Below are positions 17,480-51,002 of a stretch of 64,000 nt of DNA, in pieces. The stretch lies in NCBI GenBank assembly GCA_023137185.1, contig JAGLPS010000019.1, positions 309-64,308 on the forward strand, written 5' to 3'. Position 1 is the stretch's first letter. Every line of letters begins with the position of its first letter. A program made the position numbers and the translations under genes. Below the pieces are notes generated by a model, which was not told where the DNA came from, made no database searches, and saw only the letters and a list, made by a program, of their open reading frames with translations. Origin of the DNA: Minisyncoccota bacterium. Lineage in GTDB: Bacteria; Patescibacteriota; Minisyncoccia; Phycocordibacterales; JAGLPS01.

Positions 17480-19708
17480 TTGGTATCAATGACTAAGTTG
17501 TTAATTGTAGAATCACCGGCAAAAGCCAAAACCATCACAAAGTATCTTGATGATACATATACCGTTACCGCGTCAGTCGGGCACATAAGAGACTTGCCAA
17601 AAAGCAATAAGAAAGCCGTGGATATAGAACACGGTTTTGTTCCACATTACGAAATTTCCAAAGGAAAAGAGAAAGTTATTTCGGAAATAAAAAGTCTCGC
17701 AAAAAAAGCAGAGGAGGTGCTTCTCGCGACCGACCCCGACCGCGAAGGAGAAGCGATCGCGTGGCATATAATTCAAGCCTGCGATTTAGAAAATCAAAAG
17801 TTAAAAGTCAAAAGGATTGTTTTTCACGAAATTACCAAAGACGCCGTCAACGAAGCATTAAAGCATCCCCGAGATATTGATAACGACTTGAAGGAAGCTC
17901 AGGAGGCCCGCCGTGTTCTTGACCGCCTCGTCGGCTACGACTTGTCGGGACTTATCTGGAAAAAAGTTAGATATGGACTTTCCGCGGGACGAGTGCAATC
18001 CCCCGCTTTGCGAATCCTCTCCGAACGCGAGCGCGAAATCGCGGCTTTTATTCCCCAGAAATATTGGGTTATTGACGCGGACACAGAAACTGATAAAAAA
18101 GAAAAAATTACTTTTACCTGCGCGAAAGAACCCACTGAAGAAAAAGAAGCGGAAGAGATTTTGAAACGAGGAAAAGAGGCGCAATGGAAAATTGTTGATG
18201 TTAAAGAAACAAAAGGGAAACGTGCACCGAAAGCTCCTTTTATCACTTCAACTCTCCAACAAGCCGCAAGTTCCCGTCTTGGATTTTCGCCATCACGCGC
18301 GATGATGCTTGCCCAGAAACTTTATGAAGCGGGATTCATTACATATATGCGCACCGATAGCACTACCATAAGTGGTTCTATTGCCACTCATATCGCGGAA
18401 GTTATCAAAAAAGAGTTCGGAGAAAAATTATACACGCCGCGTGTATATAAAACAAAATCAAAAAACGCGCAAGAAGCGCACGAAGCAATACGTCCAACTG
18501 ATGTACTGAAGAGGTTTGCTGGACACAATGACGCGGAGAAAGCGCTCTACCAGCTTATCTGGGAAAGAACTGTCGCCTCTCAAATGGCAGACGCTATTGT
18601 TTTGAAAACCCGCGTCATCGCGGAAGGAGGAAAGGAAAATCCTGAGTTTACGGCAAATGGTTCGCGAATTATTTCACCCGGCTGGCTCCTTGCTGACCCG
18701 CGCGCGCGAGGCGAAGACGTAGAACTGCCGAAAGTGCAAGCTCAAGACAATCTCTCTCTGCTTAAAATACGCTCTGAAGAAAAAGAAACGCTTCCCCCGC
18801 CTCGCTATTCAGAGGCCGGCCTCGTAAAAGAGCTTGAAAAGCGCGGTATTGGTCGCCCTTCCACTTACGCGGCTATCATAAAAACCATTCAGGAAAGAGG
18901 CTACGTTGAGAAAATAAACCGCAGTCTCAAAGTAACAGACACAGGCGAAGTAGTAAGCTCTTTTCTAGAAAATAATTTCGCAAAATACGTAAGCGATACA
19001 TTTACCGCCGAGATGGAAAACAAGCTTGACGCAATCGCCGATGGACAAGCCACATATACAAAAATACTTGAAGACTTTTATGCCCCATTCGCCAAGGATG
19101 TGGAATCAAAACAGGACACGGAAAAAATCACGACACTGGGAGACGCTGAACCTCATCACAAATGTCCTTTGTGCGGAGGAGATATGATTATAAAACTCGG
19201 ACGAACCGGAAAGTTTTTAAGTTGTAAAAAATTCCCAGAATGCAAAGGCGCGCGAACACTGGAAGGAGAAGCAATGGAAGGACCAAAAGAAACTGGAGAA
19301 AACTGTCCCGAATGCGCAAAAAGCCTGCCTGTTGAGAAACAAGGAAAACTTGTAGAGCGTATGGGACGATTCGGAAAATTTATCGCTTGTAGCCGTTATC
19401 CCAAATGTAAGTACGTCAGGAAAGACCCCGCTCAAGAAGAAAAGGCAAAAACAGGAGTTAAGTGCCCCGAATGCGCAAAAAGCCTGCCTGCCGATAAGCA
19501 AGGTGAAATTATGGAGCGTCGCGGACGATTTGGACCTTTTTTCAGTTGCAGCAACTACCCTGATTGCCGTTTTAATATAAAATCAAAACCGACAGGAAAA
19601 TTGTGCGAGGATTGCGGTTCTCTAATGATGGAAGGCACGAAGACTATCCCTGAACGTTGTAGCAACAAAAACTGTCCAAATCACAATCCTCATAAAAAAA
19701 TAAAGTAA
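17480..19708 (+). CDS. topA: DNA topoisomerase I with C-terminal zinc-ribbon repeats
   Basis: TOPRIM TDPDREGEAIAWHI, and multiple CPxC...C Zn ribbons (CPLCGGDM, CPECAKS x2, CEDCGS). The start may be Met-4 (MTKLL). Confidence 0.9.
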   Translation: MVSMTKLLIVESPAKAKTITKYLDDTYTVTASVGHIRDLPKSNKKAVDIEHGFVPHYEISKGKEKVISEIKSLAKKAEEVLLATDPDREGEAIAWHIIQACDLENQKLKVKRIVFHEITKDAVNEALKHPRDIDNDLKEAQEARRVLDRLVGYDLSGLIWKKVRYGLSAGRVQSPALRILSEREREIAAFIPQKYWVIDADTETDKKEKITFTCAKEPTEEKEAEEILKRGKEAQWKIVDVKETKGKRAPKAPFITSTLQQAASSRLGFSPSRAMMLAQKLYEAGFITYMRTDSTTISGSIATHIAEVIKKEFGEKLYTPRVYKTKSKNAQEAHEAIRPTDVLKRFAGHNDAEKALYQLIWERTVASQMADAIVLKTRVIAEGGKENPEFTANGSRIISPGWLLADPRARGEDVELPKVQAQDNLSLLKIRSEEKETLPPPRYSEAGLVKELEKRGIGRPSTYAAIIKTIQERGYVEKINRSLKVTDTGEVVSSFLENNFAKYVSDTFTAEMENKLDAIADGQATYTKILEDFYAPFAKDVESKQDTEKITTLGDAEPHHKCPLCGGDMIIKLGRTGKFLSCKKFPECKGARTLEGEAMEGPKETGENCPECAKSLPVEKQGKLVERMGRFGKFIACSRYPKCKYVRKDPAQEEKAKTGVKCPECAKSLPADKQGEIMERRGRFGPFFSCSNYPDCRFNIKSKPTGKLCEDCGSLMMEGTKTIPERCSNKNCPNHNPHKKIK

Positions 19709-19986
19709 TATTAAAGCACGCAAACTGCTTTGCGTGCGCAACTAGTCTGAGTGAGCCGGAGCGATGTTTCTGTAGCAACAGAAACCGCGAGGCGGGTGAG
19801 AAATGCTGGGAGCATTTCGCAAGACCTTTTGAGACAATTTCTGAATTGTCCAAAAGGTGTACAGACTCTGTAAGAGTCACAAGTCATTCAAGCTCCGTCG
19901 AGCTTGAATGACTTGTGACCGAAGACTATCCCTGAACGTTGTAGCAACAAAAACTGCCCAAATCACAATCCTCATAAAAAAAACTA
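19709..19986 (+). mobile_element. 211-bp non-coding structured element inserted immediately after the topA stop. It is followed by a near-identical duplicate of the last ~66 bp of topA, carrying its own in-frame stop (PHKKN*).
   Basis: topA 19642..19708 is repeated at 19920..19986 with 2 mismatches plus an altered terminal codon. The element begins with the hairpin GCACGCAAACTGCTTTGCGTGC. It ends with CCAAAAGGTGTACAGACTCTGTAAGAGTC plus a 20-bp-stem hairpin. The same 3' motif ends the tRNA-linked elements. Confidence 0.5.
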
Positions 19987-23318: not shown

Positions 23319-23638
23319 CAAATTGAGCAAAGCGAAAGCTGTGCCGAGGGAGGCGCAGCTTTCTTTCTGAAGAAAGCGTCGCGCGGACTTGAAGCCCGAT
23401 TGAGATTTTCTTGAATCCAAAGGATGAAAAGAAAATCCAATTGGGGTACTGTTCCTGTAAGGAACAGTACCCCAACACAAGTAGTCAAGGCGAAGTTGGG
23501 CGCGGCAAAATCGTGTGGGGAAAGGCTTGAGGGTTGAGGCGCGAATACTTGGAGCGCCGAAAAATCTTGTGAGATTTTTTCTGAAAAATCCACAAGGTGT
23601 ACAGAACCTGTAAGATTCAAGTCCCTCCCTCGGCACCA
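23319..23638 (+). mobile_element. tRNA-3'-end-linked element. It comprises module B (about 130 bp), the hairpin GGGGTACTGTTCC-TGTAA-GGAACAGTACCCC, a partial tRNA-Leu copy (anticodon-3' half to T-stem), the GGTGTACAGAACCTGTAAG motif, and a duplicate of the tRNA 3' end with CCA (ATTCAAGTCCCTCCCTCGGCACCA).
   Basis: It starts exactly after the discriminator A. Module B is shared with 30473..30630 and 40615..40777. Confidence 0.5.
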
Positions 23639-24340: not shown

Positions 24341-24351
24341 ACATAACATAC

Positions 24352-26657: not shown

Positions 26658-26660
26658 AGA

Positions 26661-26737: not shown

Positions 26738-26771
26738 TAACTTTGAATAGAGTATCGCAAAAATTGGCTTC

Positions 26772-27647
26772 TTACAACGCGGGAATCGCGGAATGTTTTC
26801 CTACCTTATCTCTAAATTTTTTCATTAACTCCAACGTTACTTGCCCTGGCTTTCCACCTCCGGCAATTTTCCCGCCAACATTAACAATAGGAACAATCTC
26901 TTTGTTAGTAGCTGTTATAAACACTTCGTCAGCCGTATAGAGATCTTTCAAAGTTACATCCCTTCTAGTAACCGCGTATTTTCCTTTTGCCAAAGAAATA
27001 ACAAAATTTCTGGTTGTTCCAATCAAAATATTTTTTTCGGGAGTAATCAACCTTCCTTTTTTAACAATAAAAATGTTACTGGTGCTTGCTTCAAACACTT
27101 TCCCGCGCAAGGTATAGAGAATTTCAACCGCTTTTTCTTTAAGACGCTTTTGCTGCAAGCTCACGGCAGTAATATAGTTTAATGTTTTTGCTTCAGGAAA
27201 AATTCTTTGAAATTCCTCCACCATCAGTTTTCCACCCTTTTCATAAAGAGGTTTTGGAAAGGAAGTGAATTTTTCAATGATGATATAAAATGTCGGCTGT
27301 TTCTTATTAAAAAATATCCCTTCTATTGCTTCTCCCCCTGTAAGTATAAGACGCACCTGGTCATTGGGCATATTGTTCTTTTTGAGAAGCGTTATAATAA
27401 TTTCTTTTACTTTTTTGGGAGGTACGGAAAATTTCAATCCGAGAAGTTTCGCGGAATTAATAAACCTTCGTATATGCATATCAAAAAGAAACGGTTTCCC
27501 ATTGTATGCTCGCATCACATCAAAAATTCCAAAGCCGCGAATAATGCCGATATCGTTTATTGAAACCTTCGCGTCCTTTTCAGGAAGAATTCTTCCATTC
27601 AGATAGCAATACTTTTTAGCGCTTCGTGAAGCCATAATAAGTTTCAA
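26772..27647 (-). CDS. Class IV (D-amino-acid/branched-chain) aminotransferase, PLP fold type IV
   Basis: YLNGRILPEKDAKVSINDIGIIRGFGIFDVMRAYNGKPFLFDMHIRRF is typical of the IlvE/Dat/PabC family. Confidence 0.75.
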   Translation of the reverse strand: MKLIMASRSAKKYCYLNGRILPEKDAKVSINDIGIIRGFGIFDVMRAYNGKPFLFDMHIRRFINSAKLLGLKFSVPPKKVKEIIITLLKKNNMPNDQVRLILTGGEAIEGIFFNKKQPTFYIIIEKFTSFPKPLYEKGGKLMVEEFQRIFPEAKTLNYITAVSLQQKRLKEKAVEILYTLRGKVFEASTSNIFIVKKGRLITPEKNILIGTTRNFVISLAKGKYAVTRRDVTLKDLYTADEVFITATNKEIVPIVNVGGKIAGGGKPGQVTLELMKKFRDKVGKHSAIPAL

Positions 27648-27714
27648 TTATATGGGATTTCAGAAAAAAGAGAAAGGGCGACCAGATTTTGGCCGCCCTT
27701 TAAAACAGAAGCAA

Positions 27715-28680
27715 TCAGAGCCTGGCAAGTTTCCCATCATAATCTCTACAATGAGAAAAATCGACTTTGCCCCAGAAATCAAGAGGGATTGGAATTTTTC
27801 CTTTACCAGAGACATCAATGATGTATTCGGGAACAGCAATTCCCGAAAGTCTGCGCCGAATTTCGCTCACAATCATTCTCTCTTTCTCAAAGGAGCAAAC
27901 ATACCTCTCTATGCCCTTCACATAATCACACCGATACAGGTAGTAAGGTATAACGCCCATATGATAGAGCTCATTGAGAAGATGTCCCATAACCTCAACA
28001 TCATCATTAATGCCTTTGAGAAAGACTGTTTGAGAAAAAACAGCGGTGCAATTCTTCCGTATTCGTCTTATTACATCCCGCACATCCTTCGTCAATTCGT
28101 CAAAATGGCTTATATTGATAAGCACATAGAGTGGTTTTTTCAACGATATCCGGCAAGTCATTCTAAGAAGATTTTTAAGAGGCGTTGTTTCAAAACTTTT
28201 AGGCGAATGAATCGGCAAACGAGTACCTATTCGGATTACTTTTACACTTTTTATTTTTGCAAGCTCAGGCAAAAGTCCAAGTGTAATGTGCGGTGTGTAT
28301 AATGGATCTCCACCACTCAAGATTATATCGTTTATTTCCGGGTGATCGCGAATGTAAGACAAAGCGGTTTCTATTTCTTCAGGACTCAAATCACCTGAAG
28401 TGTCCCCTATTTGCCTTGCGCGCGTACAAAACTGACAGTGCGCGGCGCAGCGGTAAGAAACTTTGAAAAGCGCGCGATTGCGAAACTTGTGCGTAATTCC
28501 CTTAACGGGAGAGTATTGAGATTCCTCTCCCAAAGGGTCGAGATTTGCGAAAGCATATTCCACAACCTTTTCCGTATTCTCTACAGTAGGGTTCTTTCCA
28601 ACAGAATGAAACTGCAACGAGAGAGCTTTACTTCCTTCGTCTATAAGACGTTTGAGATGAGGAGTAATCTTTTCTTTCAT
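27715..28680 (-). CDS. KamA-family radical SAM protein (lysine 2,3-aminomutase / EpmB-like)
   Basis: CAAHCQFCTRARQIGD (a CxxxCxxC cluster) and ILSGGDPL are KamA family signatures. Confidence 0.75.
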   Translation of the reverse strand: MKEKITPHLKRLIDEGSKALSLQFHSVGKNPTVENTEKVVEYAFANLDPLGEESQYSPVKGITHKFRNRALFKVSYRCAAHCQFCTRARQIGDTSGDLSPEEIETALSYIRDHPEINDIILSGGDPLYTPHITLGLLPELAKIKSVKVIRIGTRLPIHSPKSFETTPLKNLLRMTCRISLKKPLYVLINISHFDELTKDVRDVIRRIRKNCTAVFSQTVFLKGINDDVEVMGHLLNELYHMGVIPYYLYRCDYVKGIERYVCSFEKERMIVSEIRRRLSGIAVPEYIIDVSGKGKIPIPLDFWGKVDFSHCRDYDGKLARL

Positions 28681-28859
28681 TAGGGGCTCCTTTCCAATTT
28701 TTTTCTTAATTTTAGGCTCTATTCAAATGTAAAGAACATATTAAAAGAGAAAAGCAATAGAGCCTTCTCTCACACTAAAAATACAATATCACAAGTTACA
28801 TTAAAAAAAATTATTGAATAACCTTGCGTGAAAATGTGTACTGAGAGAAACTTGAATTT

Positions 28860-28906
28860 TCAAAGAAACAAAAAGGGCTCTATTGTTTGCACAACAGAGC
28901 CCTTTA
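28860..28906 (-). terminator. Hairpin (GGGCTCTATTG-TTTGCA-CAACAGAGCCC) flanked by an A-run and a T-run; probable bidirectional terminator
   Basis: Lies just downstream of the MYG1-like gene on the minus strand. Confidence 0.45.
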
Positions 28907-28915
28907 GAAAAAAAA

Positions 28916-29986
28916 TTATTTTTTTCCTTTATGATAAGAATTAAACCGTATTCCACGACAGCGCGAGAGACCCCACGAATACCATGGGCACGGCTTTTTC
29001 TTCGAAGAACTACACGACCCTTTACTGCATACAGAAGCGCGTTTCGGCTCAAATACCGATGAGTTAAGGCCAATTTTTACTATCTCTTTTATTTTCTCAA
29101 GCGATAGCTGAGTTAGTGGCGCATCCGACGCCGTTTTTGAACCGTTCAGAAGAACTTGAAGCTTTTCGTGGAAATACCATTCTTCGGCTCCAGAAATTTT
29201 TCCCTCCGAAACAAGATAACTCCATGGAACTGGATCGTGAATATTCTTAACCGCCCTCTCCTCAACACGAAGAATACGGGCAACGTCCTCGAGCCTGATG
29301 CCCATTCTCTGGTTTGTAAAGATTTGGGTATGTCCCGACGGCTGTTTTTGGATAACCACAGAAATATTACCTCCTGCGCGACTCCGTGCGAATTTGCTTA
29401 TAATAGGATCGCCGGAGACAACCGTGGCAAGTTTAAGTTTTCCGCAAGCGCTATGGATTTCTTCAACTAGCGCGTTTTTAAGAAATTCCGTTTTTGTTTT
29501 TGTCCAGAATTGTCGTTGCTCTTCATACTTTGCCGTAATGCCTTGCATAACCCAATTTATTACTTCTCCGTTTGCGTTTGGTTTTTGTTCGTATAGAAGC
29601 GTCGCCAAGTGCGCGATGTCAAAAGGATGCCCTGAACCCTCAAGGTCATTGCTTTTCGCAAAGGCAATGATTTTGTTCAATGACGGACAATCATCTACTT
29701 CAAGCTCTTTCGCAACCAGAGTTGATGAACATTCATTTTTTTTGCGTTTCTTTTTCTCTGTCGGGTGTTCGTCAAATCTGCCGCCGCCGCAACCTATACA
29801 AAGAATTCCTTCTTGTTCGCGCTTTGCGGAAGAGCGATTTCCCATTTCTTTCCTCCAGAAATTAATTTTCGCATCCTGTATTTCCGGGAAAGTTTCTTCA
29901 CCAAAACGGAGCAGAAGCCAGATAGCAACAATTTCGTCAAGGTGCGGACGTTCGTGCGTGATAATTGTGTGAATTTTTTGGGCCAT
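28916..29986 (-). CDS. MYG1/UPF0160-family metal-dependent hydrolase-like protein with a Cys-rich C-terminal tail
   Basis: ITHERPHLDEIVAIWLL and IGCGGGRFDEH match the MYG1 pattern (TH..FHCDE, GG.YD..HH). Confidence 0.5.
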   Translation of the reverse strand: MAQKIHTIITHERPHLDEIVAIWLLLRFGEETFPEIQDAKINFWRKEMGNRSSAKREQEGILCIGCGGGRFDEHPTEKKKRKKNECSSTLVAKELEVDDCPSLNKIIAFAKSNDLEGSGHPFDIAHLATLLYEQKPNANGEVINWVMQGITAKYEEQRQFWTKTKTEFLKNALVEEIHSACGKLKLATVVSGDPIISKFARSRAGGNISVVIQKQPSGHTQIFTNQRMGIRLEDVARILRVEERAVKNIHDPVPWSYLVSEGKISGAEEWYFHEKLQVLLNGSKTASDAPLTQLSLEKIKEIVKIGLNSSVFEPKRASVCSKGSCSSSKKKPCPWYSWGLSRCRGIRFNSYHKGKK

Positions 29987-30197
29987 TACAGCCTCCTTTC
30001 GTTGGGAGCTAAGCGCTCCTAGGTTTACGTAAATTCACGTTTCAATTTTTTCTAAAGAAATTATACTACAAAAATAGTTTTAAGTCAACAAAATAAACCT
30101 CGGAACTGGAAACCTCCTTTACTTTTTTCTTTTTTGCATTTACATTATATGAGTATCTCTCTTCGCGAAGGCGAAGAGAGATAGAAAAAAAATATAT

Positions 30198-30280
30198 GCG
30201 CAGGTGGCGGAGTGGTCAATCGCGCCTGACTGTAAATCAGGTGGCTTATGCCTACGGGGGTTCAAATCCCTCCCTGCGCA
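30198..30280 (+). tRNA. tRNA-Tyr (anticodon GUA), long variable arm
   Basis: GCGCAGG-UG-GCGGAGUGGUCAAUCGC, anticodon arm CCUGA-CUGUAAA-UCAGG, variable arm GUGGCUUAUGCCUAC, T-arm GGGGG-UUCAAAU-CCCUC, acceptor CCUGCGC-A. Confidence 0.8.
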
Positions 30281-30818
30281 CAAAATCAAATTTCAGCAGG
30301 TTCTCCTGCTGAAATTTGTATTTCTAGTAGCACACGCAGTGTGCGATGGGATTTGAAAGATTTTGCGGGGCTACCCATTCAGCAGAATGGGTCGCAAAAT
30401 CAGGGCTGAGAAATTTTTTACTGCGGCGGCAGTAAAAAATGTTCTTGGCCAAATCCCTCCCTGCGCACAGATTGAGCAAAGCGAGAGCTGTGGCTGGGAG
30501 GCGCAGCTTTTTTTCTGAAGAAAGCGTTGCGCGGATTTGAAAACCTTTTGAGGTTTTTTGGAGTCAAAGACGAACAAAAAATCCAAAAGGTGTACAGAAA
30601 CTGTAAGTTTCAAATCCCTCCCTGCGCACAAAATCAAATTTCAGCAGGTTCTCCTGCTGAAATTTGTATTTCTAGTAGCACACGCAGTGTGCGATGGGAT
30701 TTGAAAGATTTTGCGGGGTTACCCATTCAGCAGAATGGGTCGCAAAATCAGGGCTGAGAAATTTTTTACTGCGGCAGCAGTAAAAAATGTTCTCGGCCAA
30801 GTCCCTCAGCGCGCACAA
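30281..30818 (+). mobile_element. Three tandem tRNA-3'-end-linked elements. Module A (30281..30472), module B (30473..30630) and module A' (30631..30818) each end in a duplicate of the tRNA-Tyr 3' end (AAATCCCTCCCTGCGCA; degenerate in the third).
   Basis: Module A and A' are about 97% identical over about 190 bp and are built from four near-perfect hairpins. Module B matches the elements at the Leu-CAA and Leu-UAG loci and ends CCAAAAGGTGTACAGAAACTGTAAGTTTC. Confidence 0.55.
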
Positions 30819-31011
30819 AAATTATACAAAAATATTTCTTCAAAATTTCGCCTGACATCGCGGTTATCTGAAGTTGCCGAAGGCAATTTTGGGATTTTTC
30901 GCAGGAAAATCTCAGATAATCGCTGTTAGGCGTCCCGAGCGGAATGAAATGGAGCGAGTGCCTGCAAGGCGTGGTCGGAGTAAAATCTTTGATTTTACGG
31001 AGAAGTTGAAT

Positions 31012-31434: not shown

Positions 31435-31519
31435 AAAAAAGATATTATTTTAAAACTTTATAAATATTGCCCTAAATTCAATTTCGCCTAACTGATTTTT
31501 ATCTAAACTTTCTGTTCAT

Positions 31520-31562
31520 ATTACACTACATTTAGAAGCTGAGCTTCCAAATGTAGTGTAAT
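31520..31562. repeat. 43-bp palindrome ATTACACTACATTTAGAAGC-TGA-GCTTCCAAATGTAGTGTAAT, in the TTGGAAGC/GCTTCCAA family
   Basis: Seen in the sequence, with one mismatch in a 20-bp stem. Confidence 0.7.
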
Positions 31563-31703
31563 ATGAATTTTATCTACTTATATCTACTTGAAGGCTCAAC
31601 ATCCAAACAAGCCTCAAACCTCCAATGTTTAAAGTGCATTCAAAAAATTTTGTAAATTCTCGGCGATCTTGACGCTTTTATCAGACGCGATATTATTAAA
31701 TGT

Positions 31704-39200: not shown

Positions 39201-39511
39201 GTTTCAAATTTGAAAAAGGAACACAGGTTTTGAGAGACGTCGCGGCAGAATTTGTTTCCCGCGAGTCAAACAGAACATCCCTCATTACTGTCACCTCTGT
39301 CTCCCTATCAACTGATTTCTCAAAAGTTATATTTTTGATAAGCGTATACCCAGAAGAAGCGGAAAAAGAAGCGCTTGACTTCTTAAAAAGAAAAAGGGGA
39401 GAATTGAGGACATACCTCGGAGCGAAAGTAAAAACAAAAAGAATACCCTTTGTCGATTTTGAAATAGACAAAGGCGAGAAAACGCGTCAGCGACTTGACG
39501 AGATTCTCTAG
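39197..39511 (+). CDS. rbfA: Ribosome-binding factor A
   Basis: Position downstream of infB with a 4-bp overlap. KH-like RbfA fold pattern (RTSLITVTSVSLSTDFS.VIFLIS). Confidence 0.8.
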   Translation: MSFKFEKGTQVLRDVAAEFVSRESNRTSLITVTSVSLSTDFSKVIFLISVYPEEAEKEALDFLKRKRGELRTYLGAKVKTKRIPFVDFEIDKGEKTRQRLDEIL

Positions 39512-39555
39512 AACAGTATTTACATAATAAAAAAGAAATCTTAAAGAAAAAATAT

Positions 39556-39630
39556 GGCCTGGTAGACAAGTGGTAAGTCGAGAGTCTGCAAAACTCTTAT
39601 GCGCGGGTTCGATTCCCGCCCAGGCCTCCA
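39556..39630 (+). tRNA. tRNA-Cys (anticodon GCA), CCA encoded
   Basis: GGCCUGG-UA-GACAAGUGGUAAGUC-GAGAG-UCUGCAAAA-CUCUU-AUGC-GCGGG-UUCGAUU-CCCGC-CCAGGCC-U-CCA. Confidence 0.8.
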
Positions 39631-39895
39631 GAAAACTGGTTGCAGTTTTCGTAGAGGACTAGGGAGTACGTAAACTGCTTTACGTGCGTCGGGAATCGAA
39701 AGGTGGAGGCACGTTTTTCTAGCAAGAAAAACAGCCGAGCCAAGGTCATGGAAATGTGTCTGCGACGGCAGACAAATTATCCCTGACCGATTCCCGCCCA
39801 GGCCTCCAGAAAACCGACTGTGGTTTTCGCAGAGGATTGGGAGCATGTAAACTGCTTTATATTCATAGGCTTTGTACCTTTTGTTTTTAAGGCAA
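39631..39895 (+). mobile_element. tRNA-3'-end-linked element. It starts with the hairpin GAAAACTGGTTGCAGTTTTC and a CGTAAACTGCTTTACG hairpin, and ends with a duplicate of the tRNA-Cys 3' end with CCA (39789..39808). A second truncated copy follows (39809..39895).
   Basis: GATTCCCGCCCAGGCCTCCA is repeated. The CUGC-loop hairpin is shared with the topA-linked element. Confidence 0.45.
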
Positions 39896-39898
39896 TCT

Positions 39899-39981
39899 GC
39901 CCGGGTGGCGGAATGGTATACGCGAAGGACTTAAAATCCTTTGTTCGAAAGGACGTGTGGGTTCGACTCCCACCCCGGGCA
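39899..39981 (+). tRNA. tRNA-Leu (anticodon UAA), class II
   Basis: GCCCGGG-UG-GCGGAAUGGUAUACGC, anticodon arm AAGGA-CUUAAAA-UCCUU, long variable arm, T-arm GUGGG-UUCGACU-CCCAC, acceptor CCCGGGC-A. Confidence 0.8.
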
Positions 39982-40201
39982 CAATGGCACATTATGATAT
40001 GAAGAAAAAAGAAACATACGAATCTGTACAGTAAAAAGTGTCACTAATAGAAAAATCTGGTAAAGTAGTAAAATATTCCCCGCCCATAGCCATGCCCCGT
40101 ACCTCCCGCAGCGGGATGGTATCGGGGTCAATTGGTAGATTCGCCAGCTGGCGGACTTTTAAAGAAAATGAAGCAGTTTGATTGTTTGAAAATTTAATCA
40201 T

Positions 40202-40274
40202 CCGCCCATAGCTCAGTTGGTAGAGCAGTTGCCTCTTAAGCAAATGGTCGCAGGTTCGAATCCTGCTGGGCGGA
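40202..40274 (+). tRNA. tRNA-Lys (anticodon CUU); unusual C1-G72 start
   Basis: CCGCCCA-UA-GCUCAGUUGGUAGAGC-A-GUUGC-CUCUUAA-GCAAA-UGGUC-GCAGG-UUCGAAU-CCUGC-UGGGCGG-A. It matches canonical bacterial tRNA-Lys apart from the 5' end. Confidence 0.7.
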
Positions 40275-40532
40275 CTCGCGAAGCGAGTCCGAGACGGAGG
40301 CTGACGAGCCGAGTCGGGCTCGCGCAAAAATTCAGCAGAATTTTATGTGTGAGGACACAAAGACTTTGCGAAGCGATAGGACGTCCAGAGAAAGCAAACT
40401 GCTTTGCTTTCGTCAGGATTCGAAGTTGCCTAACAAGCTAAAAACTAATAAACTACAAGCTGTGGTTATGGGCAGACGGGAAAATTCAAGTAGTACAGCA
40501 AAGCTGACCACAGGATAAATCCCGTACAAAGT

Positions 40533-40614
40533 GCTGGGGTGGCGAAATTGGTAGACGCGCTAGTCTTAGGAACTAGTGGAGCAATCCATGGGAGTTCAAG
40601 TCTCCCCCCCAGCA
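40533..40614 (+). tRNA. tRNA-Leu (anticodon UAG), class II
   Basis: GCUGGGG-UG-GCGAAAUUGGUAGACGC, anticodon arm CUAGU-CUUAGGA-ACUAG, long variable arm, T-arm GGGAG-UUCAAGU-CUCCC, acceptor CCCCAGC-A. Confidence 0.8.
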
Positions 40615-40777
40615 CAAATTGAGCAAAGCGAAAGCTGTGCCGAGGGAGGCGCAGCTTTCTTTCTGAAGAAAGCGTTGCGCGGACTTGAAGCCCGATTGAG
40701 ATTTTCTTGAATCCGAAGGATGAAAAGAAAATCCAATTGGGATACTGAAACTGTAAGTTTCAAGTCTCCCCCCAGCA
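40615..40777 (+). mobile_element. tRNA-3'-end-linked module B, ending in GATACTGAAACTGTAAGTTTC plus a duplicate of the tRNA-Leu(UAG) 3' end (AAGTCTCCCCCCAGCA)
   Basis: About 95% identical to module B at 23319.. and 30473... The whole tRNA-plus-element unit is bracketed by a 19-bp inverted repeat (40521..40539 and 40772..40790). Confidence 0.5.
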
Positions 40778-40888
40778 CTTTGTACGGGATTTGAAATAAC
40801 TTGACTTTTTTAAATATTTGTGACACTGTTACAAATAGAAGATAACGCTTTTTGAAATCGGTTTTTACATCCTAAAGGAGGGTGCAAA

Positions 40889-42112
40889 ATGAAAGAAAAA
40901 AAGAAGGAGCTTTTGGAGATAGCCTTAAACAAGGCTTTGGAAAAGAGAGAAAAAGATAAAGAACGGAGAAAACTAAAATTCATACAGTGGATTGTTGCGT
41001 TGTATAGCATCGCTCTGCTATTTTCTTCCCTTTTTCTTCTTGTATCTCTCAAAATTGGAGGAATTCTGTTTATTGTAAATGTAATCTACTCACTTGCTTC
41101 ATTCAAAACCGTTTCCTCAAATGAGTTGGGGGTAGTACGTCTTTTTGGAGAAGCCGTGGCAGAATTAGAGTCAGGACTTTGTTTTGTGCCACTTGGTATT
41201 TGTGAACTCAAAACATATCCTAAAAGCACTCAAGTAATAGAAATAGGTTCCCCTCTTGAAGATGATGAGGGAAAGCCTATCCCCAAAGAAAAAATTCAAC
41301 GGACTGGTGTTGTGATCAACGACACTCCTTTTAGAATCCCTTTAAAAGGAGATCCAGAGAGTAAAAACGTTATGGACCATGCTTTGACAGTTGATTCTCG
41401 AGCGCAAGTTCAGTACGTCGTCGAAAGCACTATTGCTTTTGACGAACAAAAGAGAGACCCCAATCTTGCTAACAACGAATTAATTGAAGTTCTCAAAACA
41501 GCCGTTCAAAAATTATATGGTGACAAAACACCAAAAATGGTACTCGAGCTCATCAGCAGTGGAAGAATCAACGATGTGCTCCAGGAAGAATTGGAATGGC
41601 TTATCGGTGAACCGACATCACAACCTCCTTCGGTTCTTTCAGGAAAAGAGCCTGAGGAAAATAAGGAGGAGACCAAAGAAAAAGAATGGGAATGGGTTGA
41701 AAACAAAAGGCCATGGTGGGGAATCGACATACTGAGTGTGGGTATCACAACATTGGGCCTTCCGAGAAGGGTGAACGAAGGCCTAGCTGATGCAAGAAAA
41801 AGAGAAATACTTGCAGAGGCAGACGAAGTGCAAAGAGTTAAGGCTGGTACGGGTGACGCATTTGCACTCAGTGCACGTCTTGACGCGGAAGCAACCGGCC
41901 TAAAGAAAAAGGCTAAAGTCGGGAAAACTGTTGAAGGAAAGAGAGTTATTGAACTGGAAACAGTTCAACAAACTTTTAAGAACACGGAGAAAATCATTGT
42001 CACCCCTTCTGAAGGGTTGATGTCCACAGTAATGGGATTATCCCAAGCTGTAAAAGAAACATCCTCTTCTTCCAAAAAGAGCGCCATTGAAAAAGAAACC
42101 GTAAAAAAGTGA
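40889..42112 (+). CDS. SPFH/band-7 domain membrane protein (stomatin/HflKC/flotillin superfamily) with a coiled-coil C-terminus
   Basis: N-terminal TM segment, then SNELGVVRLFGEAVAELESGLCFVPLGICELKTYPKSTQVIE...TVDSRAQVQYVV, the SPFH pattern. Confidence 0.65.
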   Translation: MKEKKKELLEIALNKALEKREKDKERRKLKFIQWIVALYSIALLFSSLFLLVSLKIGGILFIVNVIYSLASFKTVSSNELGVVRLFGEAVAELESGLCFVPLGICELKTYPKSTQVIEIGSPLEDDEGKPIPKEKIQRTGVVINDTPFRIPLKGDPESKNVMDHALTVDSRAQVQYVVESTIAFDEQKRDPNLANNELIEVLKTAVQKLYGDKTPKMVLELISSGRINDVLQEELEWLIGEPTSQPPSVLSGKEPEENKEETKEKEWEWVENKRPWWGIDILSVGITTLGLPRRVNEGLADARKREILAEADEVQRVKAGTGDAFALSARLDAEATGLKKKAKVGKTVEGKRVIELETVQQTFKNTEKIIVTPSEGLMSTVMGLSQAVKETSSSSKKSAIEKETVKK

Positions 42113-43253: not shown

Positions 43254-43529
43254 TTACGGAAAACTTGGACTATAAATTCCAAAAGTGCCAATGAGTACCT
43301 GTACTATTCCATAGACACTCCCCATTATAAACATTCCAATAAGCCCCCACATAATTGCTCGTTTTCCTTGAAGACGATCGTTATCGGTCAAACCCCCCTC
43401 ACCCTTTCCACTTATCACATACTGCACTACCCCCCAAACAAAAACAATCATTGCGACTGCGAACAAAAGTCGGATAAAAGGGTCAATAATGACTTCAGAA
43501 ACGCTGTTAAGAAAGGGACCAATTGACAT
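43254..43529 (-). CDS. Small two-helix membrane protein, VirB2/TrbC (T4SS pilin)-like paralog 1
   Basis: Helix-loop-helix hydrophobic topology with a central GKGEGG loop; similar to the five upstream paralogs. Confidence 0.4.
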   Translation of the reverse strand: MSIGPFLNSVSEVIIDPFIRLLFAVAMIVFVWGVVQYVISGKGEGGLTDNDRLQGKRAIMWGLIGMFIMGSVYGIVQVLIGTFGIYSPSFP

Positions 43530-43537
43530 ATCGAGCT

Positions 43538-43879
43538 TTATTGAACTGAAGGAACAGTAACTGAAGTTGTTTCCTGAATACCAAGTGCTTGGTTAATAAA
43601 GGCTACAATACCCCAGATTGACGCCATCACAAAGAGCGCGATTACTCCCCAAAGCATCATTGTCTTTCCTTTTGTTTGTGCTTCTTCATTTCCTCCAGCA
43701 AGAAGATACATTGCCAATCCCCAAAAGAAGAAAAGAAGCGCGGCAGCAAACGCGATAGGAATAAGAAGATCAACTATTGACCCAATTGCCTGAACAAGTG
43801 TTTGCACATTGCTTAAATTCTGAGCAAACGCGATTACAGGCGCCCCCAAAATTGCAAAAAGTGCTATATTTTTTTTCAT
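43538..43879 (-). CDS. VirB2/TrbC-like pilin paralog 2 (signal peptide MKKNIALFAILGAPVIAFA)
   Basis: Core AAALLFFFWGLAMYLLAGGNEEAQTKGKTMMLWGVIALFVMASIWGIV. Confidence 0.5.
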   Translation of the reverse strand: MKKNIALFAILGAPVIAFAQNLSNVQTLVQAIGSIVDLLIPIAFAAALLFFFWGLAMYLLAGGNEEAQTKGKTMMLWGVIALFVMASIWGIVAFINQALGIQETTSVTVPSVQ

Positions 43880-44055
43880 TTTTTTGTATAAAGCTAATAA
43901 AAATAATACGAAAACGACCTCATTTTCTAACAAATCATTCTTTATAATACCTTAATTTCAAGCGAAGAACAAGGAGACTGTGGATAAATACCAAGGAGGA
44001 TAAAGCAATTTTAAGGTATTTGTTATTCAAAAAAAAGACCGACCTGATTCACCGT

Positions 44056-44370
44056 CTAAAAAATGTCTTCTTGGAAGAATGTGATAATCCCCCAAATCGA
44101 GACCATAACAAAAAGAGCGGTAATCCCCCATTGCATAAGCCGTTTACCATCGGCGCGCGCTTTCTCGTTATCAGCATTAAGAATAAACTTTGCCAATCCC
44201 CAAAAGAAGAAAAGAAGAGCGGCGGCAGCGGCAATACGAGTAAGGTCATTAAAAAAATCTACAAGGTACCACAAAATCTCTTGGATATTCTCAAAGGCTT
44301 CTGTAATGAATGGGAAAGAAACTAAAATGGAAATAAATATAAGAAAAATGGAGAATGAATATATTTTCAT
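44056..44370 (-). CDS. VirB2/TrbC-like pilin paralog 3
   Basis: Core AAAALLFFFWGLAKFILNADNEKARADGKRLMQWGITALFVMVSIWGII. Confidence 0.5.
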   Translation of the reverse strand: MKIYSFSIFLIFISILVSFPFITEAFENIQEILWYLVDFFNDLTRIAAAAALLFFFWGLAKFILNADNEKARADGKRLMQWGITALFVMVSIWGIITFFQEDIF

Positions 44371-44380
44371 AAGACCTTAA

Positions 44381-44710
44381 TTAAAAACGTGGAGCAAGCG
44401 GCACACCAAATTGAAAGTCAAAACTTCCCGCAATGATACTTGCAAGCGCCCAGGCCGAAAGAATTACGAACAGACCTATAATTCCCCACAGCATAAGTTT
44501 TTTTCCTTCTTCAACCGATTCTTCACTTCCCCCACGAGAGAGAAATTTAGCCAAACCCCATACAAAAAGAAAAAGAGCGTACGCCACCGCTGCCGGAAGC
44601 GCCAGATTTATAATTCCTATAACAATCCCTACAAAACCGCTAAAATCCTGCGGCTGAGCAAACGCCATTAGAGGAAAAAGAAATGAAATTAAAAGCAAAA
44701 AATATCGCAT
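44381..44710 (-). CDS. VirB2/TrbC-like pilin paralog 4 (signal peptide MRYFLLLISFLFPLMAFA)
   Basis: Core AYALFLFVWGLAKFLSRGGSEESVEEGKKLMLWGIIGLFVILSAWAL. Confidence 0.5.
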   Translation of the reverse strand: MRYFLLLISFLFPLMAFAQPQDFSGFVGIVIGIINLALPAAVAYALFLFVWGLAKFLSRGGSEESVEEGKKLMLWGIIGLFVILSAWALASIIAGSFDFQFGVPLAPRF

Positions 44711-44713
44711 AAA

Positions 44714-45055
44714 TTAACCTGTGATTTGGCTGATAGTATTTTCAATAACCTGCGCTATTACCCACGCGCCAAGCAGGATAATCGCTCCGATAGCGCTCCA
44801 CAAAAACGCCCGTTTTGCCACCTCCAGTTTTTCTGGGTTTCCTTGCGCCGTGACAAAAAGAAAACCAGAATAAATAATTGCCAAGACTACAATCACAGCG
44901 CCTATTGGAATAACTATATCCGTGACAATAACCTCAACAAATTTGCCAAGCGTATCAATACCTCCCTTGAGAGGATTTTCAATTCCCTGGGCAGAAACTG
45001 CTAAAGGCAGAGTGCCTGCAATAAGTGAAACAAGTGATATATATGCTTTTTTCAT
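44714..45055 (-). CDS. VirB2/TrbC-like pilin paralog 5 (signal peptide ...LAVSAQG)
   Basis: Core VLAIIYSGFLFVTAQGNPEKLEVAKRAFLWSAIGAIILLGAWVIAQV. Confidence 0.45.
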   Translation of the reverse strand: MKKAYISLVSLIAGTLPLAVSAQGIENPLKGGIDTLGKFVEVIVTDIVIPIGAVIVVLAIIYSGFLFVTAQGNPEKLEVAKRAFLWSAIGAIILLGAWVIAQVIENTISQITG

Positions 45056-45064
45056 AATAGGTAA

Positions 45065-45433
45065 TTAGAGATATGAATAGCTTTCTTTGACAAGAGCGCC
45101 GAGAATAGTGTGAACGATAAGCCACGCGCTTAAAATAATAATAAATCCCCATAACACTTTCCAAAATACTAAATGCGCCTTTTTTATCTGATTCTCACTG
45201 CCTCCTGCCGTGAGATACAAAAATCCAGCGTACACAAACGCGATAACAGCAAGAGGAATTGAGATAACAACAAGAAAATTAACGATACTGTCCCCAAGTT
45301 CCAAAAGAGACCCGAAGTTGCAATCAAGACCGTCACACGGAACAATCCCCTCTTGAGAAAATACGAGTAATGGAAAAACAAAAAAGAGAATACTCGCAAG
45401 AAAAAAAGACTTTTTAAAAATAAGTGATTTCAT
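45065..45433 (-). CDS. VirB2/TrbC-like pilin paralog 6 (signal peptide; CDGLDC motif)
   Basis: Core AVIAFVYAGFLYLTAGGSENQIKKAHLVFWKVLWGFIIILSAWLIV. Confidence 0.45.
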   Translation of the reverse strand: MKSLIFKKSFFLASILFFVFPLLVFSQEGIVPCDGLDCNFGSLLELGDSIVNFLVVISIPLAVIAFVYAGFLYLTAGGSENQIKKAHLVFWKVLWGFIIILSAWLIVHTILGALVKESYSYL

Positions 45434-50918: not shown

Positions 50919-51002
50919 TTTTTTTCGTGAAAATTGAAAGTCAACTTGGAAGCTCGGCTTCCAAAAAAGAGCTCCGAAATGTTGTATGGGGCAGCCTTTA
51001 GC

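What the first reader, a model, noticed from the sequence alone, without database searches (positions are those of the whole stretch)
39556..39895. tRNA-Cys followed by an element with a CCA-bearing duplicate of its 3' end and a second truncated copy; conserved CUGC-loop hairpins
After tRNA-Cys...CCA comes the hairpin GAAAACTGGTTGCAGTTTTC, then a hairpin with core CGTAAACTGCTTTACG, about 100 bp, and GATTCCCGCCCAGGCCTCCA (the tRNA-Cys T-loop-to-CCA copy, 39789..39808). A second copy of the element start follows (GAAAACCGACTGTGGTTTTC...GCATGTAAACTGCTTTAT) and is truncated before tRNA-Leu(UAA). The hairpin core CAAACTGCTTTG (CUGC tetraloop closed by AAA/UUU) also opens the topA-linked element (19712..19733) and occurs at 40392..40413. 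This is a second sequence signature linking these elements.
Basis: seen in the sequence. Interest (0 to 1): 0.6.

Follow-up and report, generated by a model that had tools for sequence, protein, structure and literature searches.

The report
Guide-carrying insertion elements behind tRNA genes
Behind the tRNA-Cys gene sits a 178-base, gene-less, tightly folded insertion element, one of a large and apparently undescribed family in CPR bacteria, that carries an antisense match to the end of the tRNA in front of it plus a spare copy of that end, which points to an unrecognised base-pairing way of landing safely at gene ends.

Summary
The segment 39631-39808 is a full-length, ORF-less element. A 99-100% identical strain lacks exactly these 178 bp.

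The CUGC hairpin (H2) marks a family found in at least 120 species genomes, mostly Patescibacteria and some Elusimicrobia. It always lies on the same strand as, and just 3' of, a tRNA. Less often it lies 3' of topA or rplE.

H2 is flanked by antisense segments (g1, g2) that are complementary to the T-loop-to-3'-end of the upstream tRNA and that span the T55|C56 breakpoint. A structured 3' module follows (four types; type d here), then a direct copy of the tRNA end. Type d has 18 of 29 base pairs with compensatory changes.

Scaffolds that are 85-94% identical carry unrelated guides, each matched to its own locus. I found no Rfam family, no linked protein gene and no paper describing this.

Best reading (about 0.5): these are non-autonomous homing elements that choose gene 3' ends by base pairing and keep the gene intact by duplicating its end. 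The enzyme and the chemistry are unknown.

Main rival: a cis-acting 3'-end RNA module that spreads by recombination.

The parts
39556..39630 (+). tRNA-Cys(GCA) with encoded CCA. This is the target gene.
   Evidence: ARAGORN; Rfam RF00005, 66.9 bits
39610..39630 (+). Repeat X1: tRNA positions C56 to CCA, the segment that is duplicated.
   Evidence: 21/21 identical to 39788-39808
39631..39650 (+). Hairpin H1 (the 'B' hairpin), stem GAAAACTG/CAGTTTTC. This is the first structure of the element.
   Evidence: Sequence; MFE fold; both arms changed compensatorily in the older copy at 39809-39828
39655..39665 (+). g1: GAGGACTAGGG, an imperfect antisense to the acceptor 3' strand CCCAGGCCTC.
   Evidence: Paired with 39617-39627 in the MFE structure
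39666..39687 (+). H2: 9-bp hairpin GUACGUAAA-CUGC-UUUACGUGC, the conserved family signature.
   Evidence: three of its pairs covary across 24 relatives
39689..39700 (+). g2: TCGGGAATCGAA. Its last 11 nt (39690-39700) are the reverse complement of T54-G64 of tRNA-Cys (TTCGATTCCCG, 39608-39618), so the pairing spans the T55|C56 breakpoint.
   Evidence: Direct reading; MFE fold; family-wide own-versus-other test, 9.5 versus 5.3 nt
39701..39788 (+). 3' module type d. It consists of P2 (with tandem G.A) enclosing hairpin P3 (39713-39732), then the P4-P5 hairpin (39744-39788) ending in ..CUGACC.
   Evidence: CM R1 hit 39664-39788, 92.1 bits, E=1.4e-25; covariation
39788..39808 (+). Repeat X2: direct copy of C56-CCA of tRNA-Cys. 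It is preceded by AC, not the TT of the T-loop.
39809..39862 (+). Older, 3'-truncated unit: H1', g1' and a decayed H2' with no g2 or module. In strain L001 it follows the tRNA directly.
   Evidence: weak CM hit 39841-39964 at 15.8 bits
40276..40424 (+). 3'-truncated unit behind tRNA-Lys(CUU). It has H2 at 40390-40411 and g2 CAGGATTCGAA at 40414-40424, which is antisense to the Lys T-loop and T-stem. Strains L001 and L002 carry an extra full unit here.
   Evidence: (I3)
40616..40778 (+). Element behind tRNA-Leu(UAG) with a type-a module ending CTGTAAG (40751-40757) and repeat X2 (40758-40778). Its guides match tRNA-Leu(CAA), not Leu(UAG).
19701..19982 (+). Composite element at the 3' end of topA. 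It has H2 at 19712-19733, a type-d unit at 19714-19825, a type-a end at 19856-19874, an extra 20-bp hairpin at 19876-19919, and then a 63-nt copy (19920-19982) of topA 19638-19700 that carries the displaced original stop codon.
23320..23636 (+). Composite type-a elements behind tRNA-Leu(CAA). g1 GTGCCGAGGGAGG lies in a hairpin loop, followed by g2 GGACTTGAA. The region ends with CTGTAAG at 23608-23614 and repeat X2 at 23615-23636.
30282..30816 (+). Tandem array behind tRNA-Tyr, in the order unit A, X, unit B (type a), X, unit A, degenerate X. The tRNA end is repeated at 30450-30468, 30608-30629 and 30798-30816.

Best explanation
Window 39631-39808 is one full copy of a family of ORF-less, roughly 120-200-nt, strongly structured insertion elements found in CPR/Patescibacteria. 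The elements home to the 3' ends of genes. Targets are mostly tRNA genes, but also topA and rplE.

Anatomy, which is shown: a 5' hairpin; antisense segment g1; the conserved CUGC hairpin H2; antisense segment g2; one of four alternative structured 3' modules (type d here); and then a direct repeat of the target. The repeat runs from a point a few nucleotides inside the g2-target duplex (T55|C56 in tRNAs) to the end of the gene.

Mechanism, which is inferred: one strand of the element folds, either as the sense transcript or as the equivalent single DNA strand. H2 and the 3' module form a constant scaffold for a trans-acting host or helper factor. g1 and g2 flank H2 and base-pair with the sense strand of the target gene, forming a three-way junction that selects the site. 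Insertion then duplicates the target segment between two break or switch points, one fixed by the guide duplex and one at the gene's 3' end. The gene therefore stays intact and often gains the element's terminator-like hairpin.

Repeated hits next to the gene build tandem arrays. Recombination between the repeats removes units cleanly. The enzyme and the chemistry (staggered cuts, target-primed copying or copy-choice) are not known.
For: Insertion signatures:
- A strain 99-100% identical in both flanks lacks exactly these 178 bp. The same strains carry an extra unit at tRNA-Lys.
- At topA and rplE the original last codons and stop codon lie displaced downstream of the element.
- There is a tandem array at tRNA-Tyr.
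- Copies 96-97% identical occur at different loci in the window.

Family distribution:
About 60 of the first 80 record titles are CPR.
- 70 of 128 hits lie within 150 nt behind a same-strand tRNA, and none lies behind an opposite-strand tRNA. All 20 amino-acid types are represented.
- 54 of 157 tRNAs have a downstream copy of their last 16 nt. None of the 157 has an upstream copy.

Guide evidence:
- The longest exact antisense run of g2 against its own tRNA averages 9.5 nt, against 5.3 nt for other loci's tRNAs.
- g2 pairs better with the real gene than with the downstream repeat in 44 of 46 loci, because it includes T54 and T55.
- At orthologous rplE loci, guide and target changed together at three positions.

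Structure:
- In type d, 97.5% of cells are paired and 18 of 29 pairs have compensatory changes, with 0 of 500 shuffles reaching this and slid controls at 32-41%.
- A conserved G.U pair (21 of 24 sequences) and GCGAAGC loops (29 on the same strand, 4 on the opposite strand) make the fold strand-specific.
- The window element folds at -90.7 kcal/mol, z = -7.3.

Modularity: scaffolds 85-94% identical carry unrelated guides that each match their own locus, at different targets.

Related type-a elements in the window sit at near-cognate targets: Leu-CAA, Leu-UAG and Tyr.
Against: - No helper enzyme is linked. Clustering ORFs from 0.88 Mb around 119 loci gave only housekeeping genes. About 40 window ORFs have no integrase, transposase or reverse transcriptase domain.
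- Insertion and precise deletion cannot be told apart at the Cys locus, because the boundary lies within a 27-nt repeat.
- The repeat length varies widely: 4-6, about 12, 19-21 and 63 nt. That fits homology-driven or copy-choice events at least as well as enzyme-set staggered cuts.
- The 5' hairpin is unique at each locus even when the 3' modules are 90% or more identical.
- The Leu-UAG element carries guides for Leu-CAA, so a matching guide is not required for an element to persist.
- The element is retained at rplE in three species, and the scaffold is well conserved. This could mean a host function rather than mobility.
- The minus strand folds about as well by energy alone.
- The loci were collected with an exact H2 pattern, so the invariance of the H2 core follows from how they were found.
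Confidence: 0.5

Rival explanations
1. The element is a cis-acting 3'-end RNA module with a host-level function. Co-transcribed with the gene, its antisense segments pair with the last 12-23 nt of the upstream tRNA or mRNA around hairpins B and H2. This would set or protect the 3' end, terminate transcription or direct processing, for example by RNase III, RNase P or RNase Z. The downstream repeat would act as a decoy that frees the tRNA. Copies would spread by duplication, gene conversion and homologous recombination through the conserved tRNA sequence, for instance after natural transformation.
For: - The element is always in the same orientation as the gene and immediately 3' of it.
- g2 tracks the upstream gene copy rather than the repeat, with compensatory guide and target changes at orthologous rplE loci.
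- 28 of 70 B hairpins look like terminators.
- The scaffold is conserved across species with covariation.
- No transposition enzyme was found.
- dprA is present in the window.
- The Leu-CAA and Leu-UAG elements are 96% identical including mismatched guides, which looks like gene conversion.
Against: - Pairing with the tRNA 3' half would unfold the tRNA.
- A terminator-like hairpin lies in front of the supposed functional RNA.
- Elements replace the C-terminal codons of topA and rplE and pile up in arrays, which is typical of insertions and not of evolved regulators.
- Only some tRNAs carry an element, and this differs between near-identical strains.
- Four unrelated 3' modules would have to serve one function.
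Confidence: 0.25
2. The element is an RNA-level mobile element of the ribozyme or retrozyme type. The transcript would use one guide to cut, and possibly ligate, after the target sequence at both of its ends. That would release a linear or circular RNA, which could reverse the reaction into another RNA or DNA bearing the target. A reverse transcriptase or repair synthesis would then fix it in DNA.
For: - The same target sequence lies at both ends, and one internal guide is complementary to it.
- The junctions lie at the ends of helices: P4 closes on C56 of the repeat, and in type a the stem of the CUGUAAG loop is formed with the first nucleotides of the repeat and covaries with them.
- Conserved unpaired nucleotides and tandem G.A pairs sit at the junctions.
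- The fold is strand-specific.
Against: - No known self-cleaving ribozyme or group I or II intron model matches, even at E-values up to 10.
- Four different modules would all have to be catalytic.
- No reverse transcriptase gene is in the window or linked to the loci.
- Terminator-like hairpins lie upstream of the putative ribozyme.
Confidence: 0.1
3. The elements are decayed attL/attR scars of ordinary integrase-mediated islands or prophages that integrate in the T-loop of tRNA genes. Most of the island would since have been deleted.
For: [quoted passage not shown] It is seen here.
Against: - The elements have a uniform small size.
- The same conserved, covarying structure appears in hundreds of genomes and at all tRNA types.
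- There is an internal antisense to the target.
- Repeat lengths run from 4 to 63 nt.
- No integrase remnant lies between or beside the repeats.
- No copies occur in 2.9 million viral contigs.
Confidence: 0.04
4. The motifs are chance occurrences in AT-rich intergenic DNA.
For: The 19-nt degenerate H2 pattern is expected roughly 70 times by chance in 596 Gb (my estimate). A minority of hits, in Planctomycetia, Bacteroides, Glycocaulis and the viral contigs, are plain coding-sequence matches.
Against: Window counts against shuffles; the strict tRNA-linked orientation; covariation; and the guide-target match.
Confidence: 0.01

Closest known systems
IS200/IS605 family (e.g. IS608) and its ORF-less derivatives (PATEs)
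   Same: Both have strand-specific hairpins near the ends. Both insert in one orientation immediately 3' of a target sequence. In both, the target is read by base pairing with a guide inside the element's left end, so retargeting needs only a change of guide. Both have non-autonomous copies. (Family properties are from established knowledge.)
   Different: IS608 guides are 4-5 nt and use partly non-canonical pairing; here the antisense is 11-23 nt. IS608 makes no target duplication and has separate left and right guides. It also needs a Y1 HUH transposase, which was not seen in the window or the loci. Here the guide flanks a conserved hairpin and four alternative 3' modules exist.
IS110/IS1111 elements with bridge RNA or seekRNA
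   Same: Both involve a structured non-coding RNA of about 150-200 nt encoded by the element, with programmable segments that pair with the target. In both, the scaffold is conserved while the guides vary.
   Different: A bridge RNA has two loops, one for the target and one for the donor, and reads both DNA strands. The element encodes a DEDD recombinase, and only a 2-nt core is repeated. Here there is no ORF, both guides are antisense to the same strand, and 4-63 nt of target are repeated.
Group II introns, especially class IIC, which insert after terminator hairpins
   Same: Both recognise the upstream ('5' exon') sequence by two separated antisense segments (EBS1 and EBS2 in the intron). 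Both insert in the sense orientation at gene ends or behind hairpins.
   Different: The elements have no six-domain ribozyme, no domain V and no reverse transcriptase, and there is no Rfam hit. They are 5-10 times smaller. Introns do not duplicate their target.
Casposons and Cas1-type integration
   Same: [quoted passage not shown] Repeated insertions next to the 'leader' are possible (PMC5137440). The tRNA-Tyr array with a degenerate last repeat resembles a CRISPR array.
   Different: Casposons are 8-20 kb, have terminal inverted repeats and encode Cas1 and PolB. They have no internal antisense to the target. Their duplication length is fixed, whereas here it varies.
Integrase-borne islands in tRNA genes and their cis-mobilisable remnants (CIMEs)
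   Same: Both have a direct repeat of the tRNA 3' segment from the T-loop onward, and in both the gene is restored after insertion.
   Different: Here there is no integrase and no arm-type sites. The elements are 120-200 nt with a conserved fold and an antisense to the target. Protein-gene targets have repeats as short as 12 nt, and some tRNA targets have only 4-6 nt.
CTX-phi and other Xer-dependent elements with a folded single-stranded attP
   Same: In both, two inverted copies of the target sequence about 90 nt apart on one strand can fold into a duplex that mimics the chromosomal target. Here those are g1/g2 and the repeat X2. Tandem arrays are typical of both.
   Different: CTX-phi mimics one fixed site (dif) that XerCD reads. 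Here each element mimics a different gene end, so one sequence-specific recombinase cannot explain all copies.
Retrozymes and other small non-autonomous elements with terminal ribozymes
   Same: Both are small, ORF-less, structured and bounded by direct repeats, with possible RNA intermediates.
   Different: No hammerhead or other known ribozyme was detected. Retrozymes are eukaryotic and depend on a retrotransposon reverse transcriptase.

Membership tests
Rfam RNA families (release 15) | A match to a curated covariance model | tested here: not met
   Only tRNAs reach the gathering score in the window. No credible match appears at E up to 10 in 39500-40900, up to 1 in 19500-31000, or up to 10 in 4100-4800.
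tRNA-integrating islands (T-loop class att sites) | Direct repeat of the tRNA segment from the T-loop to the 3' end on both sides of the insert | tested here: met
   39610-39630 equals 39788-39808. 54 of 157 tRNAs in related loci have such a repeat downstream and none of 157 has one upstream.
tRNA-integrating islands (T-loop class att sites) | An integrase gene and kb-scale cargo between the repeats | tested here: not met
   The insert is 178 bp with no real ORF. Pfam scans of about 40 window ORFs found no integrase. No recurrent mobile-element protein occurs in 119 loci.
MITEs | Terminal inverted repeats and a short target duplication of fixed length | tested here: not met
   No terminal inverted repeat was found between the element ends. 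The left end is unique at each locus, while the right end is ..GTGACC or ..CTGTAAG. Repeat length ranges from 4 to 63 nt.
IS200/IS605 and PATE | Strand-specific subterminal hairpins, and a target on the left flank read by an internal guide | tested here: inconclusive
   A strand-specific fold and a left-flank antisense are present. However, the guide is 11-23 nt rather than 4-5 nt, and it flanks a hairpin instead of preceding one.
IS200/IS605 and PATE | No target duplication, and a Y1 HUH TnpA somewhere in the genome | tested here: not met
   A target repeat is present at nearly all complete copies. No TnpA was seen in the window. The rest of the genome was not available to test.
IS110/IS1111 bridge-RNA elements | An adjacent DEDD/Tnp recombinase ORF, an RNA with separate target and donor loops, and a 2-nt core repeat | tested here: not met
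   The elements have no ORF. There is a single guide set, and both parts are antisense to the same strand. The repeats are 4-63 nt.
Group II introns | Six-domain ribozyme with a catalytic domain V, usually with an RT ORF | tested here: not met
   No Rfam intron model matched. The element is only 120-200 nt.
Group II introns | Two separated antisense segments pairing with the upstream exon | tested here: met
   g1 and g2 pair with the last 20 nt or so of the upstream gene. This is a functional resemblance only.
Casposons | Cas1 casposase, PolB and terminal inverted repeats | tested here: not met
   None is present in the elements or the window.
Casposons | [quoted passage not shown] | tested here: met
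   Here the repeat runs from C56 to the 3' end, 19-21 nt. A. boonei has 15 bp overlapping tRNA-Pro by 5 bp (PMC5137440). This is a resemblance only.
Small self-cleaving ribozymes (hammerhead and others) | The conserved catalytic core of a known class | tested here: not met
   There is no Rfam match. The CTGATGAG-like string in the tRNA-Gln repeats does not score as a hammerhead. Catalysis itself cannot be tested with these tools.

The most novel reading that the evidence does not exclude
These are the first protein-gene-less, RNA-guided (or single-strand-guided) mobile elements. In this reading, a constant folded scaffold (H2 plus one of four modules) carries a freely exchangeable 11-23-nt internal guide that directs insertion behind any chosen gene end and duplicates the target so that the gene survives. 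The elements would be moved either by an unrecognised CPR enzyme that reads the scaffold or by the RNA's own catalytic activity. That would make this a new, very compact, programmable DNA-insertion system.
Probability: 0.3. Interest if true: 0.95.

Novelty: categorically new. Interest (0 to 1): 0.8.

Why it matters
If the guide really selects the site, this is a new principle of target choice for mobile DNA. It would join CRISPR-associated transposons, IS110 bridge RNAs, IS605 guides and group II introns, but with an element of only about 150 nt and no gene of its own. That is of clear interest for programmable insertion tools.

The family is worth curating whatever the mechanism turns out to be:
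- It is a large, covariation-supported structured RNA/DNA family that is absent from Rfam.
- It occupies many of the tRNA loci in the sampled regions. In the window, five of nine tRNAs carry CM- or motif-detected units, and a sixth, tRNA-Gln, is followed by tandem repeats that were not shown to belong to the family.
- It breaks metagenome assemblies at these loci.
- It rewrites the C-termini of essential genes (topA, rplE).
- It creates strain-level variation in otherwise identical genomes.

It also gives a concrete handle on tRNA-gene architecture and 3'-end formation in the poorly understood Patescibacteria.

Tried and rejected
- Known RNA families. Rfam at gathering score and at permissive E-values around all the elements returned only tRNAs.
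- Hammerhead in the tRNA-Gln repeats. The CTGATGAG-like string does not fold or score as a hammerhead.
- Linked enzyme. All-against-all clustering of 1,251 ORFs from 119 loci gave only housekeeping synteny: typA/EF, clpB, valS, rbfA, smpB and topA. Pfam scans of about 40 window ORFs gave no integrase, transposase or RT. The small GIY-YIG gene next to tRNA-Gln has only one weak tblastn match (30% identity, E=2.4e-4, in L014) in the 0.88 Mb of loci, so it is not enriched near the elements.
- Apparent cargo ORF in L085. It lies after a truncated unit and is not part of an element.
- Phage origin. The 7 viral-contig hits are chance matches inside coding sequence.
- Metagenome scan for the interior of the window's type-a subfamily. 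It found nothing.
- Related strains at topA and tRNA-Tyr. They are either identical to the window or broken by N-gaps and contig ends, so no further empty sites were found.
- T-box-like reading of UGGA in 39703-39706. The homologous position in relatives is GGCGGAGC, not UGGN.
- Ungapped per-position scoring of the guide-target duplex. It was blurred by register shifts and bulges, so I rely on the longest-run test instead.
- Literature. Six full-text searches found no description of such elements.
Full report
THE OBSERVATION

tRNA-Cys(GCA) with an encoded CCA lies at 39556-39630. It is followed by the hairpin GAAAACTGGTTGCAGTTTTC at 39631-39650 and by a hairpin with core CGTAAACTGCTTTACG at 39669-39684. 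About 100 nt further on, a 21/21 copy of the tRNA's C56-to-CCA segment lies at 39788-39808, matching 39610-39630. A second, diverged element start occupies 39809-39862 and stops before tRNA-Leu(UAA) at 39899-39982.

The two element starts are 85% identical over 54 nt. The first hairpin keeps its pairing through changes on both arms.

AAACTGCTTT occurs four times in the window against 0.56 expected, and all four copies are intergenic. The second signature, GGTGTACAGNNNCTGTAAG, occurs five times against 0.14 expected, each time behind a tRNA or topA.

ORGANISM AND POLYMORPHISM

The neighbouring protein is encoded on MAG contigs (GCA_030634405.1 and three ENA/Logan assemblies) with clusters of T4SS-pilin genes. 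Relatives of the element are overwhelmingly Patescibacteria.

One near-identical strain, L001, has flanks 98.8% and 100% identical to the window. L001 and L002 also carry a full extra unit behind tRNA-Lys that the window and L003 lack. Units are therefore gained or lost cleanly between strains.

Because the boundary falls within a 27-nt repeat, insertion and repeat-mediated deletion cannot be distinguished at this locus.

Directly 3' of the CUGC hairpin (H2, 39666-39687) lies TCGGGAATCGAA (39689-39700). Its last 11 nt are the reverse complement of TTCGATTCCCG, which is T54-G64 of tRNA-Cys. Just 5' of H2, GAGGACTAGGG (39655-39665) is an imperfect antisense to the acceptor 3' strand.

The minimum-energy fold pairs both segments with the tRNA end around hairpins H1 and H2. 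It closes the rest of the element onto the downstream repeat (-90.7 kcal/mol, z = -7.3).

The same layout occurs elsewhere in the window:
- Behind tRNA-Lys, CAGGATTCGAA is antisense to TTCGAATCCTG (pair I3).
- Behind tRNA-Leu(CAA), GTGCCGAGGGAGG and GGACTTGAA are antisense to the tRNA end.
- Behind tRNA-Tyr, GGATTTGAA plays the same role.

THE FAMILY

About 60 of the first 80 titles are CPR lineages, namely Paceibacterota, Saccharibacteria, and Kaiser-, Yonath- and Nomurabacteria among others. Six are Elusimicrobia, and a few are plain chance hits in coding sequence.

Of 128 hits, 70 have a same-strand tRNA ending within 150 nt upstream. None has an opposite-strand tRNA there. All amino-acid types are represented.

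The 18 nt after H2 contain an exact antisense run to their own tRNA end averaging 9.5 nt, against 5.3 nt for tRNAs of other loci. Of 157 tRNAs in these loci and the window, 54 have a copy of their last 16 nt 40-450 nt downstream, and none has one upstream.

The repeat usually starts at C56 and ends at the discriminator plus C74. The guide also pairs with T54 and T55, which only the real gene has. As a result it fits the gene better than the repeat in 44 of 46 loci, so the guide spans the breakpoint.

Four alternative 3' modules follow the guide:
- (a) ends in a hairpin with the 7-nt loop CUGUAAG, whose stem is made with the first nucleotides of the repeat and covaries with them.
- (b) ends ..CACCUGGCUAUGUAAUAGCC.
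- (c) ends ..ACCCGCGACCGUAGGGCGAGA.
- (d) is the type found in the window's Cys element.

STRUCTURE OF TYPE D

I aligned 24 type-d elements. This gives H2; a helix P2 (GCC/GGC alternating with GGC/GCC) next to a conserved tandem G.A motif (GGAGC/GCGAGG); hairpin P3; and a long P4-P5 hairpin with a bulged A.

Across the alignment, 97.5% of cells are paired and 18 of 29 pairs show compensatory changes. None of 500 shuffles reaches this, and slid controls give 32-41% pairing.

A G.U pair conserved in 21 of 24 sequences, and GCGAAGC-type loops (29 on the element strand, 4 on the other), make the fold strand-specific. The folded species is therefore the sense transcript or the top DNA strand. Folding energy alone does not discriminate between strands.

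A covariance model from this alignment finds the following in the window:
- the Cys element (92 bits);
- the topA element (53 bits);
- the Lys unit (38 bits);
- both tRNA-Tyr 'A' units (32 and 31 bits);
- a remnant at 40268-40354 (22 bits);
- the truncated copy (16 bits).

NON-tRNA TARGETS AND REPEAT LENGTH

At topA, 63 nt of the gene end are repeated, and the original stop codon lies downstream of the element.

At rplE in three species, the element replaces the last codons, and the original tail (..KKEE..K*) lies downstream. Guide and target differ between species at three positions in a compensatory way.

In a subset of tRNA loci, the guide pairs with the extreme 3' end of the tRNA plus the first nucleotides of the element. 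Only 4-6 nt are repeated after module d in these cases.

The repeat therefore starts within a few nucleotides (0-4) of the 5' end of the guide-target duplex and ends at the element's left boundary, whatever that distance is.

MODULARITY

Elements from different species with 85-94% identical modules sit at different targets with unrelated guides, each matched to its own locus. Examples are Met/Trp/Ile, Arg/Gly, and Val/rplE.

Inside the window, three related type-a elements sit at tRNAs with similar ends: Leu-CAA, Leu-UAG and Tyr. The Tyr copy has a point change in g2 that matches its T-loop. The Leu-UAG copy is about 96% identical to the Leu-CAA copy (my count from the two sequences as read) and still carries the Leu-CAA guides, yet both of its flanking repeats are of the Leu-UAG type. 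This means either off-target insertion with true target duplication, or gene conversion of the interior.

WHAT IS NOT THERE

- No Rfam family matches.
- The elements contain no ORF.
- No recurrent mobile-element protein occurs in 0.88 Mb around 119 loci.
- No integrase, transposase or RT is found among about 40 window ORFs.
- No copies occur in viral contigs.
- Six full-text searches found no description.

INTERPRETATION

Several things are shown. These are insertion elements, as indicated by the displaced gene ends, the arrays and the strain polymorphism. They are ORF-less and have a selected, strand-specific fold. They carry an internal antisense to the gene end in front of them.

Other things are inferred. 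The antisense is a targeting guide held on a constant scaffold. Insertion duplicates the target between a guide-fixed point and the gene end.

I put about 0.5 on this guide-directed homing reading. The chemistry is open, whether staggered cuts as with Cas1/casposons, target-primed copying or copy-choice.

The main rival, at about 0.25, is a cis-acting 3'-end RNA module that spreads by recombination through the conserved tRNA sequence. Retention at rplE, the terminator-like 5' hairpins (28 of 70) and the lack of any enzyme favour it. The arrays, the replaced C-termini, the patchy distribution and the four alternative modules argue against it.

A ribozyme-type RNA mobile element gets about 0.1, and decayed integrase att scars about 0.04.

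COMPARISON WITH KNOWN SYSTEMS

The family works most like IS200/IS605, in using an internal guide that reads the left flank and in its strand-specific hairpins. It also resembles IS110 bridge RNAs in having a scaffold plus programmable guides, group II introns in using two antisense segments for the upstream exon, and casposons in duplicating a tRNA 3' end. It fails defining features of each of these (see the membership table). I therefore do not file it under any of them.

Noticed in passing
window 40517-40539 and 40770-40792: A perfect 23-nt inverted repeat brackets tRNA-Leu(UAG) together with its element. It extends the acceptor stem by 14 bp (aaatcccgtacaaa / tttgtacgggattt), like a processing stem.
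   Followed up: no
window 4440-4700 (minus strand), behind tRNA-Gln 4702-4773: About 97-nt tandem repeats with GCGAAGC loops and a CTGATGAG-like string. There is no Rfam hammerhead match. The next gene (4149-4430, minus strand) is a 93-aa GIY-YIG protein that is not enriched near the H2 loci.
   Followed up: partly
window 7409-7452 and 8147-8190, with ORF 7520-8035 (minus strand) between them: The first 44 nt of the dus gene are repeated at 100% identity upstream of an inserted 171-aa ORF that has no Pfam hit. This is an insertion at a gene's 5' end that duplicates the gene start.
   Followed up: partly
window 8893-8975, 23645-23730, 31515-31567, 50942-50964: A separate repeated hairpin pair, TTGGAAGCTCGGCTTCCAA and TTTTGGACACTGAGTGTCCAAAA, recurs in intergenic regions, including right after the Leu(CAA) element.
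   Followed up: no
window 23506-23543: A partial copy of tRNA-Leu(CAA), from the anticodon loop to the 5' T-stem, lies inside the composite element. It is followed by a type-a module and the tRNA's 3' end, as if a pseudo-tRNA had been split in its T-loop.
   Followed up: no
window 40079-40160: tRNA-like fragments lie upstream of tRNA-Lys. ccgcccatagc matches the 5' start of tRNA-Lys, and aattggtagattcgccag resembles the Leu(UAG) D-arm.
   Followed up: no
loci L126, L128, L130, L131, L001: Related metagenome assemblies end or contain N-gaps exactly at these elements, for example contigs ending at the 3' end of tRNA-Tyr. The elements therefore break short-read assemblies.
   Followed up: partly
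loci L043, L089, L112 (3' end of rplE, uL5): The same kind of element sits at the end of ribosomal protein L5 in three species. The original C-terminal codons are displaced downstream, and guide and target show compensatory changes.
   Followed up: yes
type-a modules, e.g. window 30601-30607, 40751-40757, 23608-23614: The conserved 7-nt loop CUGUAAG is almost identical to the anticodon loop of tRNA-Tyr(GUA), which is CUGUAAA. Types b and c also present GUA in their terminal loops.
   Followed up: no
window 43254-45433: A cluster of five to six small T4SS-pilin-like genes (PF18895 in the related contigs) lies next to the tRNA array.
   Followed up: no
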